64,000 nt of DNA from a virus (taxonomy: Duplodnaviria > Heunggongvirae > Uroviricota > Caudoviricetes), in IMG/VR virus record IMGVR_UViG_3300037484_000445, positions 1 to 64,000 of that record, one strand, 5' to 3'. Shown here piece after piece: positions 7,858 through 28,071 of this stretch; within the stretch, counting starts at the first letter, position 1; each line of letters begins with the position of its first letter. A model generated the notes under the pieces. The model was not told where the DNA came from, searched no databases, and worked only from the letters and a program-made list of their open reading frames with translations. Made by a program: the position numbers and the translations under genes.

Positions 7858-8101
7858 CGACAGGACGCGAGTCCATTACCCACCCGTCTGTTGTGGACGG
7901 GAGAAACGCACCCTTTATACCCGACAACGGCGTCGGCCCTGACTGGGTGGTCCGTGGAGTAAGGCTAAACCTCTCGAGGTGTAGTCGGAAACCGGCAAGG
8001 GCACCAACTCTTGGAAGGCGTATGGTTCGATCCTGACTTGTTCGTGTGGGCGATAGGTAGTTAAAGGTCCCTCATAAGGGGTAACCTCCAGCGTCTTGTC
8101 G
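7858..8101 (+). ncRNA. unidentified structured RNA of about 240 nt
   Basis: ends pair (CGACAGGACGC/GCGTCTTGTCG); several internal hairpins; lies between tRNAs. Confidence 0.5.
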
Positions 8102-8686: not shown

Positions 8687-8848
8687 AGGGCACCCCCTAC
8701 GTGAAGCATACAAGCCTTTGTTGGTTCGACTCCAACCTTCCCCACTAGGACTTAGGTCCGATCTACGGGGAAGTCGCTCAATGGTAGAGCAGCGGAAATT
8801 GAAAATCCGTCTCGAAAGAGATTCTCCGCTTTACAACTCGGGTGCCCT
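8687..8848 (+). ncRNA. circularly permuted tRNA-like RNA with conserved module (element A)
   Basis: AGGGCACCC/GGGTGCCCT end stem; GTGAAGC/GCTTTAC; ATACAAGC; T arm, closed acceptor CTTCCCC/GGGGAAG, D arm, anticodon arm in that order. Confidence 0.85.
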
Positions 8849-8933: not shown

Positions 8934-9071
8934 GGGGAACATGAGGCACGGCGCCTCGCCAGACGGTTAATCTGGATGCCAAAAGCATCACTGCCTAGTT
9001 TCTCGGCTCTGCAAGGAGCCTCTCTACTTGGCCTACAAGCACACTTGGTTCGACTCCAAGGTTCCCCGCCA
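8934..9071 (+). ncRNA. tRNA-ended RNA with conserved module inserted in the variable loop (element F)
   Basis: acceptor GGGGAAC/GTTCCCC+GCCA, D arm, CCAGA-CGGTTAA-TCTGG arm, GCAA-capped module, CTACAAGCA, T arm. Confidence 0.8.
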
Positions 9072-10713: not shown

Positions 10714-10850
10714 GAGGGCACCCCCTCATCGTAAGCAAACAAGCACTTTGGGTTCGATTCCCAATTCCCCCTCTAGGACTTCGGTCCGATCATGGGGGAA
10801 AGCCCAGTGGTGGGCAGCAAAGTCATTCGCTTTCAAACTCGGGTGTTCTC
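10714..10850 (+). ncRNA. circularly permuted tRNA-like RNA (element B; no anticodon arm)
   Basis: GAGGGCACCC/GGGTGTTCTC; AAACAAGCA; T arm, TTCCCCC/GGGGGAA closed by a GGAC-TTCG-GTCC hairpin, D arm. Confidence 0.82.
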
Positions 10851-11993: not shown

Positions 11994-12150
11994 GAGTACC
12001 CCCTACGATAGATCAAACAAGCATTTGTGGGTTCGAGTCCCGCCTCCTGCTCTAGGGTGAAAGCCCAACATGCAGGAGTAGCCGAATGGTAAAGGCAATG
12101 GTTATCCAAACCGTGATTAGCATCACATCGATCTAGCAACTCGGGTACTC
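11994..12150 (+). ncRNA. circularly permuted tRNA-like RNA (element C)
   Basis: GAGTACCC/GGGTACTC; TAGATC/GATCTA; AAACAAGCA; T arm, CTCCTGC/GCAGGAG closed by a hairpin, D arm, anticodon arm (TA TCC AA). Confidence 0.87.
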
Positions 12151-12422: not shown

Positions 12423-12544
12423 GAGGCATCCCATCAGAAAGTACATACACGCATTGTCTAACGGTAGGACAATACCCTTCCAAGGTATCCATACGGGTTC
12501 AAATCCTGTTGCTAAAAACGTCGTACTTTCATCTCGGATGCTTC
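12423..12544 (+). ncRNA. module enclosing a normal-order tRNA-Gly(TCC)-like body (element G)
   Basis: GAGGCATCC/GGATGCTTC; GAAAGTAC/GTACTTTC; ATACACGCA; D, anticodon (CT TCC AA) and T arms; acceptor reduced to about 3 bp. Confidence 0.8.
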
Positions 12545-15342: not shown

Positions 15343-15771
15343 GGACCCCCAAGCTTAATCTGAAGCTCCTTGTTACTGGTGCTCTGGTTTGGGACGAAAG
15401 TCCCTGTGTTGGTTCGAATCCAACCGCCCCGACTCCGACGTAAGTCGGTAACTCACCGGGGTGTAGTCCAATGATGGCAAGAGGCACTCCAGCGCCAACT
15501 AAGACTGAATCTTGGGACTAAGCTTAAGCTGAATTCTGTTGCTAACTTCTCTATCGGTTGCCTGCAATTTCCACGAATGTTGGTTCGAATCCGATCTCCC
15601 CAGCAATGCTCATCAGGGCCCACTTCATGGGCATTGCTGGGGGGTGGCCTAATGGCAAGGCGCGTGGGCTTTAGAGCTGATGGGCAATCTTAAACGCCGT
15701 AGTTAGTCAGACAGAACGCACTAACCATGCGAACCTACACGGACCTGGGGACAGGCTAGTTTCCCGGGTCC
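15343..15771 (+). ncRNA. about 430-nt RNA containing two circularly permuted tRNA domains (YrlA-like topology)
   Basis: two T-arm / closed-acceptor / D-arm units (about 15378-15496 and 15571-15667) in a paired scaffold with repeated AAGCTTAA(T/G)CTGAA; terminal hairpin 15741-15771. Confidence 0.8.
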
Positions 15772-15947: not shown

Positions 15948-16034
15948 GGAAGACAAATCCGTTAGGTACGGACGCGGTTTTGAAAACCGATGGGTCCCGT
16001 GAAAGGGACTGGGTTTCGAGTACTCTGTCTTCCG
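15948..16034 (+). tRNA. tRNA-Ser(TGA), 8/4 fold
   Basis: GGAAGACA/TGTCTTCC, TT TGA AA, variable arm. Confidence 0.85.
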
Positions 16035-16037
16035 CTA

Positions 16038-16451
16038 ATGGCCAACGTGAATCAGAAGGGTGTTATAGGTTTGGTTAAGGTGACCGCGGATCTTGTAACA
16101 CGTGGATTCGAAGTATTCACACCGATCTCTGATGCATGTCCTGTAGACCTTATTGCTGCTAATGATGCAATGACACTTCGCAGGATTCAGGTTAAGTATA
16201 GAGAACCTTCTGCTAGAGATCATGTGCTTTTTGTGTCTTTGGACTCTGTGGTTAACGGGAGACGTGTTCCTATAAACTTGAGCCTGTTGGACGGTTGGGC
16301 AATTTATTGTCCTCAGACAGAGAAGGTTTATTACGTCCGTCGGGATGCTGTTAGTCTACGTAGTATACGGTTGTGCTTACAGGATTCCAGACAAAGAAGA
16401 CAAGGTCGTTTAGCTACGGACTTTATGGATCCAGCGAGCCTATGGTTTTGA
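16038..16451 (+). CDS. PD-(D/E)XK endonuclease (homing-endonuclease-like)
   Basis: KGVIG..V..DL..RGFEVF.P..PVDLIA..RIQVKY. Confidence 0.85.
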   Translation: MANVNQKGVIGLVKVTADLVTRGFEVFTPISDACPVDLIAANDAMTLRRIQVKYREPSARDHVLFVSLDSVVNGRRVPINLSLLDGWAIYCPQTEKVYYVRRDAVSLRSIRLCLQDSRQRRQGRLATDFMDPASLWF

Positions 16452-17592: not shown

Positions 17593-19479
17593 ATGCCAAA
17601 TGTAGAGAACCTAGGGCCTGCTGAGCGAATCATCAACTCACTACTGACTTACACGGATCACCTTTTTCATGGGCGTCCGGGTATCGTTACGCCGGACACC
17701 ACACTGGCGACAGGTGCCAAGTGGCAGTTTGCCACCTATGTCGAGAATGCCGGCGTCAAGACGGTCTATGCTCTTCGTGAGAAGGGTCCAGTGACAAAGG
17801 TCGAGATTGCTGAGGGTAAGTCCTTGAAGATCAAGGGCACGGCTTTTGGTGTCCTCGACGCCGACGGCATCACCATCAAGGATCCTCGTGGCCGAAAGAT
17901 TGGTGAGTATCGTTCACCTGGCATCTTCAAGGAAGTTGCTACTTGGATGTTCCGTCAGGTCGCTGAGATCTGGAAGTTGGACAACGAGTTTGCTGCTCGT
18001 TGGGCATCTCACGCCTATGCTGAGGATCATCGAGACCTCAAGGTTATTCTGGCTTCGTTCATGCTGGTTCAGACCCGTAAGGGTGACCCCGTATTGGATG
18101 GGGGTAAGGTAGCTTTCCTTGATGAGGACTACCGTGATGTTGGCGAAGCCATGATCTTGCAGAATGGGGCTAAGTACCTGGATCTAAAGATGATCCTTAG
18201 GATTCTGGGGGTGCTAGAGCTTCCTGAGGTTGCGGCGATCGTGCGAGAGCTTGGATTTGGTAACTCGGCACGTAGTAAGTTCTTGGGCCGGTTCCCGAAG
18301 GTTGCTGAGAAGTGGCTTCGGTATCGAGAAGAGAACCCTCAGTTGCTGAAGGGCTTGATTAAGAGCGGTCAAAGGAGCTCGTTGAAGAGACTGGCTACAA
18401 CCGTTCGATACAAGCCGACCACGCCGAAGTTCTTCAAGGATTTGCGTTGGAAGCAGGTCCAGGCCAAGGACGGTCACCGTGGGCTTGCCATTGGCGAGGC
18501 TGTGAGTGCCGCCGAGACTTGGGCGGATCTACGTGAAGAGCAAATCTGCGAGAGGATTGTTCAGTCCAAGATGAACTTCAAGAGGATTGTTGGCCTTTTG
18601 CCGGAAGCTGTCGGACTTTCTCGTGCTGTTATGGCAGCTGCGATCGAGGCTGGTTCACTTTCGGATAAGGACTTGATCCTTTACACGCCGACGCTGGAAG
18701 AGCTTGGTCTGCTCAAGGTTCCAGCTATTCACGGGAAGTGGCAGTTGGCTCTTAAGGCTGCCGAAGACCAGAGGGCTGCTAACGTAGCTACTCGAGTCAA
18801 GGGCAAGGAAACCAAGGAACTACTGCAGGGTGCCGCAGACACGGCTATGCAAAAGGCTGTGGAAGAGGTAATCCGAGGTATGAGGGTCTACTTCATCGTA
18901 GACATCTCGGGCTCGATGGAAAACGCCATTGAGCAGGCCAAGGTCAACATCACCAAGTTCTTGCCGGGTTTCCCGCTCGACAAGATCCACGTTTCGGTCT
19001 TCAATACCTCCGGTCGGGAGATCGCCCTCAAGCATGCTACGGCGGCTGGGGTCGAGAATGCCTTCCGTGGTATCAAGGCCAGCGGTGGAACTAGCTACGG
19101 TGCAGGTGTCATGGCTCTCCATACACACAAGCCTAAGGCTGAAGAAGACGCCCTGTTCTTCTTCATTGGTGACGAGGAGGCCACCCCCTTTGCTCAGGAT
19201 GTAAGGATGTCGGGTATCAATCCGGTAGCCTTCGCTTTCATCAAGGTAAGGGTTAATGGCTACTCTGCTGTTAGGGATACGGCCCAGGCTCTGGGGATCC
19301 CTTGCATCATGGTGGACCAGAACACCTTTGAAGACCCGTATGCTATCCCTCGGACTATTCGCAACTTAATTGCGGCAACTCCTGTGGGACGTGCTCCGGC
19401 CAGGATCCAGCAGCGTGAAACGTTGGTAGACGTGATCCTTAAGACGCCTCTACTGACGAAGCCGGCTTGGGCGGCATAA
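17593..19479 (+). CDS. Ro60/TROVE-like helical protein with C-terminal vWA (MIDAS) domain
   Basis: VDISGSM, GGTSY, IGDEE MIDAS motifs; basic helical N-terminal 400 aa; vWA is firm, TROVE is inferred from architecture and RNA context. Confidence 0.65.
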   Translation: MPNVENLGPAERIINSLLTYTDHLFHGRPGIVTPDTTLATGAKWQFATYVENAGVKTVYALREKGPVTKVEIAEGKSLKIKGTAFGVLDADGITIKDPRGRKIGEYRSPGIFKEVATWMFRQVAEIWKLDNEFAARWASHAYAEDHRDLKVILASFMLVQTRKGDPVLDGGKVAFLDEDYRDVGEAMILQNGAKYLDLKMILRILGVLELPEVAAIVRELGFGNSARSKFLGRFPKVAEKWLRYREENPQLLKGLIKSGQRSSLKRLATTVRYKPTTPKFFKDLRWKQVQAKDGHRGLAIGEAVSAAETWADLREEQICERIVQSKMNFKRIVGLLPEAVGLSRAVMAAAIEAGSLSDKDLILYTPTLEELGLLKVPAIHGKWQLALKAAEDQRAANVATRVKGKETKELLQGAADTAMQKAVEEVIRGMRVYFIVDISGSMENAIEQAKVNITKFLPGFPLDKIHVSVFNTSGREIALKHATAAGVENAFRGIKASGGTSYGAGVMALHTHKPKAEEDALFFFIGDEEATPFAQDVRMSGINPVAFAFIKVRVNGYSAVRDTAQALGIPCIMVDQNTFEDPYAIPRTIRNLIAATPVGRAPARIQQRETLVDVILKTPLLTKPAWAA

Positions 19480-19556
19480 ATCGAAGTTTGAGGGGTCGGT
19501 TGCGTAAAACGTGACCGACCCTTTGCTTCATTACTTTTTAGGTGTATATACACCAC

Positions 19557-20513
19557 ATGTCTTGGCGCGATCTACTCCAGGCGGTTGATGAAACCCTGAG
19601 CTACCCGTGGACGGGTGGACGGACCCTTAGGGGATCCGATGATAGGCGCTTGACCGTTGAGGGCCGACTTCCTAGGGAGTATGGTTGGTGTACTTTCAAG
19701 GTTTTAGGACGTAAGGCTCGCTATACGTCTCCTGCGGAGCCTCAGCCTTTGGGATTCAAAGTTTTGGGTTACCTTGTGGGAGACCGCTTCATTTCGGATG
19801 GTGTTCGTGTTGACCCGGATCCCCAGACCATTGCTACCTTTTCTGAGCCGGTCCACATCTTGGAGGACGGTCTCGATCGATTCGTTAGAATATCCGCTGG
19901 CCGGATCTTTGACGACGGACCCCTGATCTACGATGCTCTGGAGATGCCTTTGGGGCCCGAGGAAGCGGTCCTGGAAGCCTTCTTGGACCAGAAACCATCC
20001 GTAAGCCACATTCCTGGCGTTGTACCGGCTCTAGACGCTGCTTTCAGGCTGGAGACCTATCAGAGAGTCGAGGCCGAGAGACGCCGCCTAGAAGAGGAAC
20101 GTAGGCTTCGGGAAGAGGGAGAGGCCCGGCAGAGAGAAGAGCGTCGCCAGGAGCTGATCAAGCAACTGGGAGACGGCCGAGGGCGAAGGGCTCTGGCTGC
20201 CCAAGACTTTGGCACTGCGGCACGGGCGGCTTTGGCCATTGGCGGGGCCGAGTATCTGGATCACCGTCGCTCTGTCAATCGTGGTGAAATGGTCGTCAGG
20301 TTTAGGCTCAATCACCGTCGGTTCGAGTGCGTTTGTGCTGAAAGGACCCTTGCCATCATTGACTCGGGAATCTGTCTCACGGCTCACTACGATGATCCGA
20401 ACTTTACCGGCGGTACGAAAGGAGACGGCTGGTTCACCTTGGAAAGTCTACCTTCGGTAATTCTCGAGGCAGAGAGGCTAGGCCGCTTGGTGGTGTATAG
20501 ACACGTGGACTAG
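19557..20513 (+). CDS. putative E2-like (UBC-fold) conjugating enzyme with central coiled coil
   Basis: IIDSGICL (cf. E2 G.ICL catalytic Cys) followed by WFTLESLPSVI; next to JAB/Ubl/E1. Confidence 0.6.
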   Translation: MSWRDLLQAVDETLSYPWTGGRTLRGSDDRRLTVEGRLPREYGWCTFKVLGRKARYTSPAEPQPLGFKVLGYLVGDRFISDGVRVDPDPQTIATFSEPVHILEDGLDRFVRISAGRIFDDGPLIYDALEMPLGPEEAVLEAFLDQKPSVSHIPGVVPALDAAFRLETYQRVEAERRRLEEERRLREEGEARQREERRQELIKQLGDGRGRRALAAQDFGTAARAALAIGGAEYLDHRRSVNRGEMVVRFRLNHRRFECVCAERTLAIIDSGICLTAHYDDPNFTGGTKGDGWFTLESLPSVILEAERLGRLVVYRHVD

Positions 20514-20521
20514 GAGACCCT

Positions 20522-20911
20522 ATGCAAGAAGCCGGTGTGTTGGTAGACTTTCGAGGCAACCCGATTTATTGGCATCTGCCAGCAAATCGGGGAACGATAG
20601 TTTTGCCCGATAGTCGAGATCTTTGGAAAGCCTTCGAGGAAAAACGTGACAGGGTTTATGGGTACGCCCATAGTCATCCTGGATCCGGGATGCCCGCGGC
20701 TTCAGCCGAAGATATCACGAGCTTTTCTGCAATTGAGAGAGGCCTTGGGCGTCGACTAGTCTGGTGGATTGCTACGGCCACAGACGTCAAACACTACTTG
20801 TGGCGAGGCCCTGACGAGTACCTTTATCGGGGTTACGCAGACACTATGGTTCCTCATGGCTTTGCTTGGTTGGATGAGCTTAGGAACCTTTCACACTACG
20901 ATGGGAGATGA
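20522..20911 (+). CDS. JAB/MPN (JAMM) metalloprotease, deubiquitinase-like
   Basis: N-terminal EAGVL, HSHPGSGMPAASAED (HxH-x7-S-x2-D). Confidence 0.9.
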   Translation: MQEAGVLVDFRGNPIYWHLPANRGTIVLPDSRDLWKAFEEKRDRVYGYAHSHPGSGMPAASAEDITSFSAIERGLGRRLVWWIATATDVKHYLWRGPDEYLYRGYADTMVPHGFAWLDELRNLSHYDGR

Positions 20912-21168
20912 ATATGGAAGACTTTGAAGCACGGGTAAACGTTACATACATGGGCGCCAACGGAGATCTTCCGGACCCTGTGAAGTACGACGCCACGGAT
21001 GCCGAGATCCTTGGTTGGGTAACGGAAGCCATTCGTACTGGCGGTGTCCCTGGTATTCCGGAAGACGCTAACGCCAACCTGACGGATTTCGTTGTCGATC
21101 GGTTTGGTCCTAGCGAACCGACTCCGTACAACCGCCTGATGGTGCGTCCCAAGACGCCCTTCGGTTGA
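20908..21168 (+). CDS. ubiquitin-like (beta-grasp) protein
   Basis: 86 aa, ends RPKTPFG with a C-terminal Gly; lies between JAB and E1. Confidence 0.75.
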   Translation: MNMEDFEARVNVTYMGANGDLPDPVKYDATDAEILGWVTEAIRTGGVPGIPEDANANLTDFVVDRFGPSEPTPYNRLMVRPKTPFG

Positions 21169-21186: not shown

Positions 21187-21762
21187 ATGGCCTTGATTAC
21201 AATTGTTGGTGTAGGAGCTCTTGGGTCACACGTGGCTCAATTCCTCCGAAACGCGGAAGCTGAGATCAAAGTCATCGACTTCGATCGTATTGAGACCAAG
21301 AACACGAAGTCTCAATTTCATAGCTCGCCCAACGTGGGCAAGCTCAAGGCGCCCTCGCTTCAGCAGACCTTGAACTTCTTGTTCAAGACGAAAATCACAG
21401 TGGTTTCTCACAAGCTGGTTGATGACAACGTCAATCAGCTTTTGGGTGGATCCAACCTCGTGATCGACTGCTTGGATAACGGTACAGCTCGGAGATTGGT
21501 CCAAACATTCTCTCGTGCTCAAGGAATCCCGTGCTTGCACGGGGCTTTGGCTGCGGATGGAGCTTTTGGTCAAGTTCTCTGGACTGAGCACTTTCGAATC
21601 GACGATGAGGTGGGTGCGGGGGCGGCGACCTGCGAAGATGGAGCTCATCTTCCGTTCATCGCCTTGGTCTCCAGCCTCATGGCACAGTCAGCTCAGACGT
21701 TCCTGCGAAGCGGGAAGAAGTTGAATTTTCAAATACATCCGACGGGCGTAATCTCCGTCTGA
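21187..21762 (+). CDS. E1-like ThiF/MoeB adenylyltransferase
   Basis: VGVGALGS, IDFDRIETKN, DCLDN..R, ATCED (candidate catalytic Cys). Confidence 0.92.
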   Translation: MALITIVGVGALGSHVAQFLRNAEAEIKVIDFDRIETKNTKSQFHSSPNVGKLKAPSLQQTLNFLFKTKITVVSHKLVDDNVNQLLGGSNLVIDCLDNGTARRLVQTFSRAQGIPCLHGALAADGAFGQVLWTEHFRIDDEVGAGAATCEDGAHLPFIALVSSLMAQSAQTFLRSGKKLNFQIHPTGVISV

Positions 21763-21834: not shown

Positions 21835-21967
21835 GGCGGATACGAGGCATGGGCCTCACCAGACACATAATCTGGATGCGAAAGCATCACTGCCTAGCGT
21901 CTCGGTCCCGCAAGGGACCCTTAGTTTAGGCCTACAAGCACACTTGGTTCGATTCCAAGATCCGCCA
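21835..21967 (+). ncRNA. tRNA-ended RNA with module in the variable loop (element H; paralog of F)
   Basis: GGCGGAT/ATCCGCC, CCAGA-CACATAA-TCTGG, GGTCCC-GCAA-GGGACC, CTACAAGCA, T arm. Confidence 0.82.
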
Positions 21968-21969
21968 CC

Positions 21970-22120
21970 TGGCTTCACTCCCACGTAGAGATCAAACACG
22001 CATCTGTTGGTTCGAGTCCAACTTTTTCCGTCACAAACTGGAAAAATAGCCTAACTGGTAAAGGCAATCGTCTGAAACACGATCAATTGTACTACCGGTC
22101 TCAACACTCGAGTGAAGTCA
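21970..22120 (+). ncRNA. circularly permuted tRNA-like RNA (element D)
   Basis: TGGCTTCACTC/GAGTGAAGTCA; GAGATC/GGTCTC; AAACACGCA; T arm, TTTTTCC/GGAAAAA, D arm, anticodon arm CT GAA AC. Confidence 0.85.
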
Positions 22121-22126
22121 AACTAA

Positions 22127-22251
22127 CCCGGTAAAAGGGCAATGGCAGCCCACCTGTTTTAGGGATAGGCATAGTCGCTCGGACGACTCGACCTCGCAAG
22201 GGGTCTCCAGAACGAGCATACAAGCATGTGGTTCGAATCCACATACCGGGA
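22127..22251 (+). ncRNA. tRNA-ended RNA with module in the variable loop (element I)
   Basis: CCCGGTA/TACCGGG, D arm, loop TT TAG GG, GCTCG..ACTC-GACCTC-GCAA-GGGGTC..CGAGC-ATACAAGCA, T arm. Confidence 0.82.
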
Positions 22252-22252
22252 C

Positions 22253-22386
22253 TGAGGGTCACCCCCTCTAGTATACATACAAGCAAACTAGCTCAGTCGG
22301 TAGAGCATCCGCCTCATAAGCAGAACGTCGTCGGTTCAAATCCGACATTTGCACCTTTAGTCGTATACTTTCTCGGGTGACCTTCA
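22253..22386 (+). ncRNA. module enclosing a normal-order tRNA(CAT)-like body (element E)
   Basis: TGAGGGTCACCC/GGGTGACCTTCA; GTATAC/GTATAC; ATACAAGCA; D, anticodon (CT CAT AA) and T arms. Confidence 0.83.
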
Positions 22387-27072: not shown

Positions 27073-27432
27073 GGGCTCGACAGGTTTCGACGTGGTGAAC
27101 AAGGAATATATCGATCATGCAAGGGCGCTCGCCCCTTCAACGAGCCGTAATAACTGCAAACGACAACAGCATTGCTGACCGCCTCGTAGCGTAAGCCATT
27201 ACCCCAGTAGATCGTCCTAGTATCTGGGGAGTGAAACCAAGACCAGGGCTGGGTTTCCGGGATTGCCTAACCACCGGGTATCGAGATTGAAGAAAGGCTT
27301 TGGACAGACAAGATTCTGTCAAAACCCTAGGCGAAAGCCCACGGTCAAATAGGGTCATCGTAGTGGGCTAAGCATGTGAACAAGGTACTTCTAGAAGCGC
27401 TGCGGACCCCGGTTCAATTCCGGGCGGGTCCA
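27073..27432 (+). ncRNA. ssrA: tmRNA; tag (A)ANDNSIADRLVA at 27156-27194
   Basis: GGGCTCGACAGGTTTCGAC 5' end, G3:U70, TAACT-GCA resume context, T arm and CGGGTCCA 3' end. Confidence 0.95.
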
Positions 27433-27474: not shown

Positions 27475-28071
27475 ATGGAGATGAACATGGTCAAGCTAAG
27501 TGAGTTGAATCTTTTATCCTTTGGCCATACTATCCAGATGGCCGGTGCTATCTTTCAAGGAGAAGGACAAACCTTCCTGGCATTCTTTCCTGAGGACGCC
27601 GACAACCAAGATCATGTCCTCAACCGTTTGGAGTTGAGTCTGGATGATTGGAACGCGATCATTCGGCAGACAGACCTCTTAGAGACCGAGATCTTGGCGA
27701 GGGCGGCTGATGGCACGCTCACCAAGGTGGTCATCCGTAAGAGTCAGCGGCAAATAGAACAAGGGGTTTCTTGGAAGGTCTTCAAGCGTGACGGCTATAG
27801 CTGTCGCTACTGCGGTAAGGACGACATACCCCTCACGGTGGACCATTTGGTTTGCTGGGAAGCCGGCGGCCCAAGCATTGTCGAGAACCTTGTATCGGCT
27901 TGTCGCAAGTGCAACAAGACTCGAGGGGATCTTTCCTATGCAGATTGGTTGAACCATCCGTACTACAGGAAGGTCGCTTCAGGCTTGAGTGCTTCTGAAC
28001 GTGAGGCTAATATCCAGTTGTTGCAAACTCTGGGTTCTATCCCTCTGAACGTGCATAAACGGTCCCGCTAG
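27475..28071 (+). CDS. HNH endonuclease-domain protein
   Basis: RDGYSCRYCG..LTVDHL..GG..NLVSACRKCN. Confidence 0.9.
   Translation: MEMNMVKLSELNLLSFGHTIQMAGAIFQGEGQTFLAFFPEDADNQDHVLNRLELSLDDWNAIIRQTDLLETEILARAADGTLTKVVIRKSQRQIEQGVSWKVFKRDGYSCRYCGKDDIPLTVDHLVCWEAGGPSIVENLVSACRKCNKTRGDLSYADWLNHPYYRKVASGLSASEREANIQLLQTLGSIPLNVHKRSR

What the first reader, a model, noticed from the sequence alone, without database searches (positions are those of the whole stretch)
8934..9071. Topology 2: tRNAs with normal ends and the module grafted into the variable loop (also 21835, 22127)
These have complete acceptor, D, anticodon and T arms, but the variable loop carries P2'-..CUC-P1'-GCAA-P1-loop-P2-ACAAGCA. 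This is the circular permutation of topology 1, with P1 capped by a GCAA tetraloop. 8934 and 21835 are clear paralogs 13 kb apart with compensatory changes (GGCTCT/GGAGCC vs GGTCCC/GGGACC; GGGGAAC/GTTCCCC vs GGCGGAT/ATCCGCC) and different loops (CG GTT AA vs CA CAT AA, both lacking U33). 8934 encodes CCA. They could be chargeable or CCA-bearing, unlike topology 1.
Basis: seen in the sequence. Interest (0 to 1): 0.82.

Follow-up and report, generated by a model that had tools for sequence, protein, structure and literature searches.

The report
Open-ended tRNA mimics beside phage Ro60
Three tRNA-shaped genes of a 452-kb phage carry an extra folded handle and travel with a distant relative of the RNA-surveillance protein Ro60; they are most likely a back-to-front version of bacterial Y RNAs that, unlike known ones, keep free tRNA ends and matching amino-acid identity marks, so they may be chargeable.

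Summary
8934-9071, 21835-21967 and 22127-22251 are full cloverleaves with a two-helix handle (P2, CUC loop, capped P1, P2, ACA(A/C)GC) between the variable region and the T arm. I found 139 distinct relatives in 84 loci of jumbo phages and Myxococcota. All are co-oriented with a divergent Ro60-like protein (17593-19479; best structural matches are all Ro60) and mostly lie directly after its JAB/Ubl-like/ThiF operon. P2 covaries in the same register in these RNAs and in the permuted, YrlA-order copies, so the circular permutation is real. They are not introns and probably not decoders: U33, U8 and A14 are often lost. Anticodon and discriminator base co-vary as synthetase identity predicts (45/84 against 24.7 by shuffling; Gly 12/12 U73; the paralogs 8934 and 21835 switch both). 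The sealed-acceptor copies show no significant signal. Best reading: de-permuted Y-RNA-like tethers of a Ro60-like ring, read by tRNA-recognising host proteins and possibly aminoacylated. Binding, expression and charging are untested, and the YrlA GNCGAA motif is absent. This scan noted the same system earlier in other genomes; I found no paper describing it.

The parts
8934..9071 (+). Topology-2 RNA with free acceptor ends; Asn-like (anticodon GUU, G73, G33), encoded CCA; handle 8992-9040
   Evidence: (73 bits; this copy is in the model's training set)
21835..21967 (+). Topology-2 RNA, paralog of 8934; Met-like (CAU, A73, A33), no encoded CCA; starts 73 nt after the ThiF stop
22127..22251 (+). 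Topology-2 RNA, Leu-like (UAG, A73, U33), no variable hairpin, no encoded CCA
8687..8848 (+). Topology-1 (YrlA-order, permuted) RNA with the same handle, ends in P1
   Evidence: (YrlA 29.4 bits, gathering 69)
10714..10849 (+). Topology-1 RNA (no clear anticodon arm)
11994..12150 (+). Topology-1 RNA
21970..22120 (+). Topology-1 RNA, starting 2 nt after the 3' end of the 21835 element
12423..12544 (+). Topology-3 RNA: handle encloses a tRNA body (Gly UCC)
   Evidence: z -3.8
22253..22386 (+). Topology-3 RNA: handle encloses a tRNA body (Met CAU)
   Evidence: z -5.0
17593..19479 (+). Divergent Ro60/Rsr-like protein, 628 aa: N-terminal beta insertion, TROVE-like helical part, vWA domain with MIDAS; putative binder of the handle
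19542..20513 (+). Conserved 323-aa protein of unknown fold with two invariant Cys; an E2 assignment is not shown
20522..20911 (+). JAB-like protease
20908..21168 (+). 86-aa protein ending in Gly; ubiquitin-like by context only
21187..21762 (+). ThiF/E1-like enzyme

Best explanation
These are Y-RNA-like tRNA mimics of a divergent Ro60 system, written in normal tRNA order. They are cut out of the phage tRNA array like tRNAs (RNase P at G+1, 3' trimming, CCA addition; inferred) and keep the handle. The handle (P1, CUC internal loop, 8-bp P2, single-stranded ACA(A/C)GC) is the docking site for the Ro60-like ring (inferred). The tRNA face stays free and carries a matched anticodon and discriminator base. 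It is therefore read by a host protein that checks both ends of a tRNA, most simply the cognate aminoacyl-tRNA synthetase, so at least some copies are probably charged (about even odds within this reading). They do not decode. Their job is to tether the ring, and through it the JAB/Ubl-like/ThiF set, to tRNA-handling factors, or to report the charging or damage state of chosen tRNA species. Shown: structure, permutation, family, genomic coupling, fold of the protein, anticodon-N73 coupling. Inferred: expression, processing, binding, charging and any link to Ubl conjugation.
For: Family of 139 sequences in 84 loci; 170/170 hits on the strand of the Ro60-like gene. P2, not imposed by the search, shows double-sided changes at 8/8 pairs and the same register in both topologies. 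Topology 1 has YrlA order and a weak YrlA hit. 16/59 topology-1 copies start within 12 nt of a topology-2 3' end. Protein: Foldseek ranks 1-10 are all Ro60/TROVE (E 1.8e-8 to 4.2e-6); the helical part alone matches Ro60 at Z 13.0 (rmsd 4.2, 264 aligned), 11.2 and 9.3, next unrelated 6.3. Reverse test: 45 of 54 viral contigs found by DNA pattern alone encode the protein, the 9 others are fragments, 0/10 control contigs do. In 83 of 94 loci an RNA lies within 1 kb after ThiF or within 2 kb before the Ro60-like gene. One Myxococcota MAG keeps RNAs and ring gene with no partner gene found nearby. N73 equals the cognate discriminator in 45/84 (shuffle mean 24.7, max 37), survives collapsing relatives (42/79), and is the position most tied to anticodon class (MI 1.13 against 0.28). 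The genome has CCA-adding-family and RtcB genes.
Against: The YrlA Ro-binding motif GNCGAAN0-1G is absent (4/139 and 0/59). The protein has no Pfam TROVE hit, so the handle-ring pairing rests on co-occurrence among partly related phages. Another operon protein could be the binder. Acceptor stems do not match cognate tRNAs (Gly type: C2:G71 in only 6/12). U8 is kept in 70/139 and A14 in 32/139. The identity signal rests mainly on the Gly, Tyr and Asn types; rarer types often do not fit.
Confidence: 0.62

Rival explanations
1. Uncharged decoys or baits: the RNAs present anticodon loops of tRNAs that host anti-phage nucleases or toxins attack, and hold the attacker on the Ro60-like ring for Ubl tagging or sequestration. 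The N73 match would be inherited from parent tRNAs rather than used.
For: Several copies per genome with varied anticodons; constant linkage to JAB, a Gly-ending small protein and ThiF; Tyr-type loops lack U33 in 11/11; phage-rich distribution.
Against: Stems within the Gly type are no more alike than background (0.39-0.46) while U73 is invariant, and the type is scattered over the tree (at least 6 changes forced). The paralogs 8934 and 21835 switch anticodon and N73 together. The system also sits on Myxococcota contigs. No E2 is shown.
Confidence: 0.2
2. The handle binds another product of the operon (the 323-aa Cys protein or the ThiF/Ubl pair), and the RNAs are substrates or cofactors of a sulfur-transfer or RNA-modification pathway of the TtuB/TtuC or SAMP/UbaA type (from my own knowledge). 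Ro60 would be incidental.
For: RNA clusters most often begin directly after ThiF (71/94 loci); E2-less E1/Ubl/JAB sets serve tRNA thiolation in archaea and Thermus (established knowledge).
Against: No TtuA-like thiouridylase was identified among the five genes; several bacterial loci put the RNAs right before the ring gene, one without the other genes nearby; Ro60 is the only member with a known RNA-binding fold.
Confidence: 0.1
3. Working tRNAs with a very large variable arm that decode on the ribosome.
For: Complete cloverleaf, G1:C72 in 124/139, encoded CCA in 34/139 against 485/1344 for ordinary tRNAs; identity-matched N73.
Against: U33 in only 45/84; only 84/139 have a 5-bp/7-nt anticodon arm, and some have none; U8 and A14 often lost; ordinary tRNAs for the same anticodons are present.
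Confidence: 0.05
4. The handle is an intron or mobile insert that is spliced out to leave an ordinary tRNA.
For: Deleting it in silico leaves ARAGORN-positive cloverleaves, and ARAGORN at a lowered threshold calls 22127 an intron-bearing tRNA-Leu; the handle also occurs in anticodon loops (L163, L167).
Against: The same handle forms the free RNA ends in topologies 1 and 3; about 50 nt is far too short for group I or II introns; no Rfam ribozyme hit; spacing to the T arm varies 0-10 nt, so there is no fixed junction; the product would still lack U33 and U8.
Confidence: 0.03

Closest known systems
YrlA Y RNAs with Rsr/Ro60 (Rfam RF02553; PMC4201824; 10.1101/312249)
   Same: tRNA-like T, acceptor and D arms joined to a two-helix handle; encoded on the same strand near a Ro60-fold gene; several per genome; topology-1 copies have YrlA order (29.4 bits) and YUAY-like nucleotides between handle and T arm (66/139; YYAC 109/139).
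   Different: Normal tRNA order with free acceptor ends and a capped handle; anticodon arm retained (YrlA lacks the anticodon loop); handle joined at the variable region rather than replacing the anticodon arm; CUC-G and ACA(A/C)GC instead of GNCGAAN0-1G; partner is a TROVE-negative protein with a beta insertion in a JAB/Ubl-like/ThiF operon.
[quoted passage not shown]
   Same: A Y RNA with a free 7-bp acceptor and CCA end.
   Different: There it is a two-piece processing product without an anticodon loop; here the open form is a one-piece gene with anticodon and matched discriminator.
phiRo60 with Yrl1/Yrl2 of Thermus phage phiLo (PMC12135203; PDB 9KOP, 9L5Y)
   Same: Phage-encoded Ro60-fold protein with neighbouring small RNAs; top structural match.
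   Different: Its RNAs carry a CGAA bulge and recruit PNPase; about 15% identity; the passages I read describe no open-ended cloverleaf.
One-piece and two-piece (permuted) tmRNA; permuted algal and archaeal tRNAs
   Same: Circular permutation of a tRNA-like gene; a tRNA mimic with a non-tRNA payload.
   Different: No tag ORF, no splicing-endonuclease motif seen; the phage has its own ordinary tmRNA at 27073.

Membership tests
YrlA (RF02553) | Score at or above the Rfam gathering threshold (69 bits) | tested here: not met
   No hit on the three topology-2 RNAs; best topology-1 copy 29.4 bits
YrlA (RF02553) | T arm 5' of D arm, acceptor closed by a loop | tested here: not met
   Topology 2 has normal order; met only by the topology-1 siblings
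YrlA (RF02553) | GNCGAAN0-1G Rsr-binding motif | tested here: not met
   4/139 topology 2, 0/59 topology 1
Y RNAs (broad sense) | Encoded near a Ro60 orthologue on the same strand | tested here: met
   170/170 co-oriented; 45/54 contigs in the reverse test; 21835 lies 2.4 kb from the gene, 8934 lies 8.5 kb away
Y RNAs (broad sense) | Stem, internal loop, stem handle | tested here: met
   P1/loop/P2 with covariation in P2
Y RNAs (broad sense) | Physically bound by Ro60/Rsr | not testable with these tools
   needs pull-down or EMSA
Ro60/Rsr (protein 17593) | TROVE helical ring followed by vWA with MIDAS (fold) | tested here: met
   Foldseek top 10 all Ro60; helical part Z 13.0/11.2/9.3 against 6.3 for the next entry; ring closure itself is not shown (TM about 0.3, pTM 0.64)
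Ro60/Rsr (protein 17593) | Pfam TROVE (PF05731) sequence match | tested here: not met
Canonical decoding tRNA | 7-bp acceptor, D, anticodon and T arms, T-loop consensus | tested here: met
Canonical decoding tRNA | U33, U8:A14 and a normal-sized variable region | tested here: not met
   G33/A33 in 8934/21835; family U33 45/84, U8 70/139, A14 32/139; not called by ARAGORN or Rfam
Canonical decoding tRNA | Aminoacylation | not testable with these tools
   indirect only: anticodon-N73 coupling
Group I/II or BHB tRNA intron | Ribozyme core or fixed splice junctions | tested here: not met
   no Rfam hit, about 50 nt, variable junction, forms RNA ends in other topologies
E1-E2-Ubl-JAB conjugation systems (Bil/Bub type) | An E2 (UBC-fold) enzyme | tested here: inconclusive
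   no Pfam, PADLOC, PDB or Atlas match for the 323-aa protein; not folded

The most novel reading that the evidence does not exclude
A class of aminoacylated Y RNAs: one-piece, open-ended tRNA mimics that are charged by host synthetases according to matched anticodon and discriminator, held on a divergent Ro60 ring by a portable handle, and used to couple the charging or cleavage state of chosen tRNA species to a ubiquitin-like tagging set in jumbo phages and myxobacteria.
Probability: 0.25. Interest if true: 0.87.

Novelty: new variant of a known kind. Interest (0 to 1): 0.66.

Why it matters
The purpose of the tRNA-like domain of bacterial Y RNAs is an open question; the describing papers could not name its reader and thought aminoacylation unlikely to be general (PMC4201824, 10.1101/312249). 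Here permuted and un-permuted forms lie side by side, which fits the idea that Y RNAs arose by permutation of tandem tRNA genes. It also ties a Ro60-type particle to a JAB/Ubl-like/ThiF operon instead of PNPase or RtcB. Standard tRNA scanners and the Rfam YrlA model miss the three copies here.

Tried and rejected
Rfam at gathering and E-value thresholds: no family covers the topology-2 RNAs; in bacterial loci some score only as tRNA. Pfam TROVE: none in this genome or in 25 related records. Sequence search of PDB with the ring protein: only weak vWA hits. Foldseek on the helical part alone: no hit at E<=0.001, though Ro60 entries had the highest probabilities. E2 identity of the 323-aa gene: not found by Pfam, PADLOC, PDB or Atlas. 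The Ubl fold of the 86-aa protein was not tested structurally. In-silico splicing was uninformative because ARAGORN accepts about half of all deletions. Promoter and terminator scan: at chance level. GCAA cap as a functional motif: rejected (33/139). No covarying base pair between CUC and ACAAGC was found, though near-invariant positions give this test little power. Five literature searches on phage Ro60, permuted Y RNA, Ubl linkage and myxobacteria gave no description of this topology; three reviews were not held. Virus Rctr197k (GenBank) has a gene for the ring protein but no clear topology-2 RNA within 9 kb.

Full report
Setting. The window is the first 64 kb of a 452-kb virus record with 48 tRNA genes and a tmRNA between 7.5 and 27.4 kb. 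The three elements of the finding are called neither by ARAGORN nor by Rfam.

Observation. All three fold as described, with z-scores of -3.4 to -5.5; exact parts are. 8934 starts 2 nt after the discriminator base of tRNA-Arg and ends in G-CCA. Both also have a variable-arm hairpin before the handle. 22127 has U33, and only 8934 encodes CCA.

Family. Using the neighbouring 628-aa gene as bait I fetched 170 loci from viral, metagenome and genome collections. They hold 139 distinct topology-2 RNAs in 84 loci, all on the strand of that gene, and 59 good topology-1 copies. A motif-blind search shows that 136 of 156 over-long tRNA-like elements carry both motifs, against 34 of 1431 normal-length ones for ACA(A/C)GY. 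P1 and the T stem were part of my filter, but P2 was not: it has changes on both sides at 8 of 8 pairs and the same register relative to CUC and ACAAGC in both topologies. The circular permutation is therefore real. 16 of 59 topology-1 copies begin within 12 nt of a topology-2 end, the arrangement from which tandem genes can give permuted ones (inference). The handle is portable. It also encloses a tRNA body (12423, 22253) and sits in the anticodon loop in two bacterial loci. Among capped copies recovered by a topology-free search, nearly all lay upstream of a T loop.

Partner. The 628-aa protein has no Pfam TROVE match, but its model's ten best Foldseek matches are all Ro60 structures. The helical part alone matches Xenopus, Deinococcus and phage Ro60 at Z 13.0, 11.2 and 9.3, with the next entry at 6.3. 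It heads a five-gene set (unknown 323-aa protein, JAB, 86-aa Gly-ending protein, ThiF) whose four other genes are present in 104-109 of 110 loci with enough flank. The RNAs lie within 1 kb after ThiF in 71 of 94 loci and within 2 kb before the ring gene in 15. In the reverse direction, DNA patterns alone found the handle on 54 searchable viral contigs. 45 encode the ring protein, the other 9 are fragments (5-68% complete), and 0 of 10 chance-match contigs do. Kinship among jumbo phages inflates these counts, but the link also holds on Myxococcota contigs. An E2 is not shown.

What the tRNA face is for. Decoding is unlikely: U33 is kept in 45 of 84 copies with a regular anticodon arm, U8 in 70 and A14 in 32 of 139, and ordinary tRNAs with the same anticodons are in the array. 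Yet the discriminator base follows the anticodon as in the ordinary tRNAs of the same loci: 45 of 84 matches against a shuffle mean of 24.7 (maximum 37). Gly-UCC has U73 in 12/12, Asn-GUU G73 in 5/6 and Tyr-GUA A73 in 8/11. The signal survives collapsing relatives (42/79) and is far stronger at N73 than at 15 other positions. It is not significant in topology 1 (15/39, p 0.22; a smaller sample). Within the Gly type the stems are no more alike than background and the type is scattered over the tree. In this window the paralogs switch both marks together: GUU with G73, CAU with A73; 22127 has UAG with A73, the Leu discriminator. Proteins that read both ends of a tRNA are chiefly synthetases (established knowledge), so charging is plausible. 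The acceptor pairs do not match cognate tRNAs well, rarer types often do not fit, and no charging data exist. The genome carries CCA-adding-family and RtcB genes elsewhere.

Intron reading. Rejected: about 50 nt, no ribozyme hit, a junction that varies by 0-10 nt, and the same handle forms the RNA ends in other topologies. The in-silico deletion test was uninformative.

Comparison with known systems. Bacterial YrlA RNAs are circularly permuted tRNA mimics with a closed acceptor, no anticodon loop and a GNCGAA motif; only M. smegmatis YrlA is opened by RNase P and gains CCA. Topology 1 resembles them (29.4 bits against a gathering score of 69). Topology 2 fails the YrlA membership tests (order, motif, score) while working like a Y RNA on the genomic evidence. 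I file it as a new variant of Ro60/Y-RNA tRNA mimics, not as YrlA. I found no paper on this topology or operon. Earlier notes of this scan describe the same protein, operon and handle in other genomes; these are leads, not support. I saw no mention of the anticodon-discriminator coupling in the excerpts shown.

Verdict. Real, conserved and not yet described in what I could read; the mechanism is inferred. Interest 0.66.

Noticed in passing
L163:9806-9946; L167:36-172: The same handle is inserted in the anticodon loop of otherwise canonical Cys-like and Tyr-like tRNA bodies, just upstream of the Ro60-like gene in bacterial MAGs: a further topology.
   Followed up: partly
L116:8220-8360: The handle appears to lie before the anticodon arm (D-loop position) of a tRNA body.
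   Followed up: no
L166:14129-14250 (Paraliomyxa miuraensis SMH-27-4): A cultured myxobacterium has the five-gene set followed directly by a topology-3 RNA with an Arg-ACG body; a tractable host.
   Followed up: partly
window:14604-15771: DUF7873 gene followed by T-arm-containing structured RNA (T loops at 15412 and 15583) without the handle motif; possibly a second RNA-protein pair.
   Followed up: no
window:28-107 aa of the 17593 protein (17674-17913): A beta-rich insertion near the N terminus, outside the region aligned to Ro60 by the structural aligner; fold not searched separately.
   Followed up: no
window:23868-26277: A PAS histidine kinase and response regulator pair on the minus strand inside the tRNA array.
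   Followed up: no
window:9415-10017, 15990-16451, 27475-28071: HNH-like and PD-(D/E)XK endonuclease genes interspersed among tRNA genes.
   Followed up: no
window:7858-8101: Structured non-coding stretch with a T-loop-like motif at 8025 between tRNA-Gln and tRNA-Glu; no Rfam hit.
   Followed up: no
family-wide: Tyr-GUA-type copies lack U33 in 11/11 and Asn-GUU types in 5/6, which removes the UGU site read by the queuine-inserting enzyme (my own knowledge); Gly and Gln types mostly keep U33.
   Followed up: partly
G000:274759-275133 and 303693-304952: The genome encodes a CCA-adding/poly(A) polymerase family enzyme and RtcB far from the array.
   Followed up: partly
window:28907-30628: A second vWA-domain protein (573 aa), not examined.
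   Followed up: no
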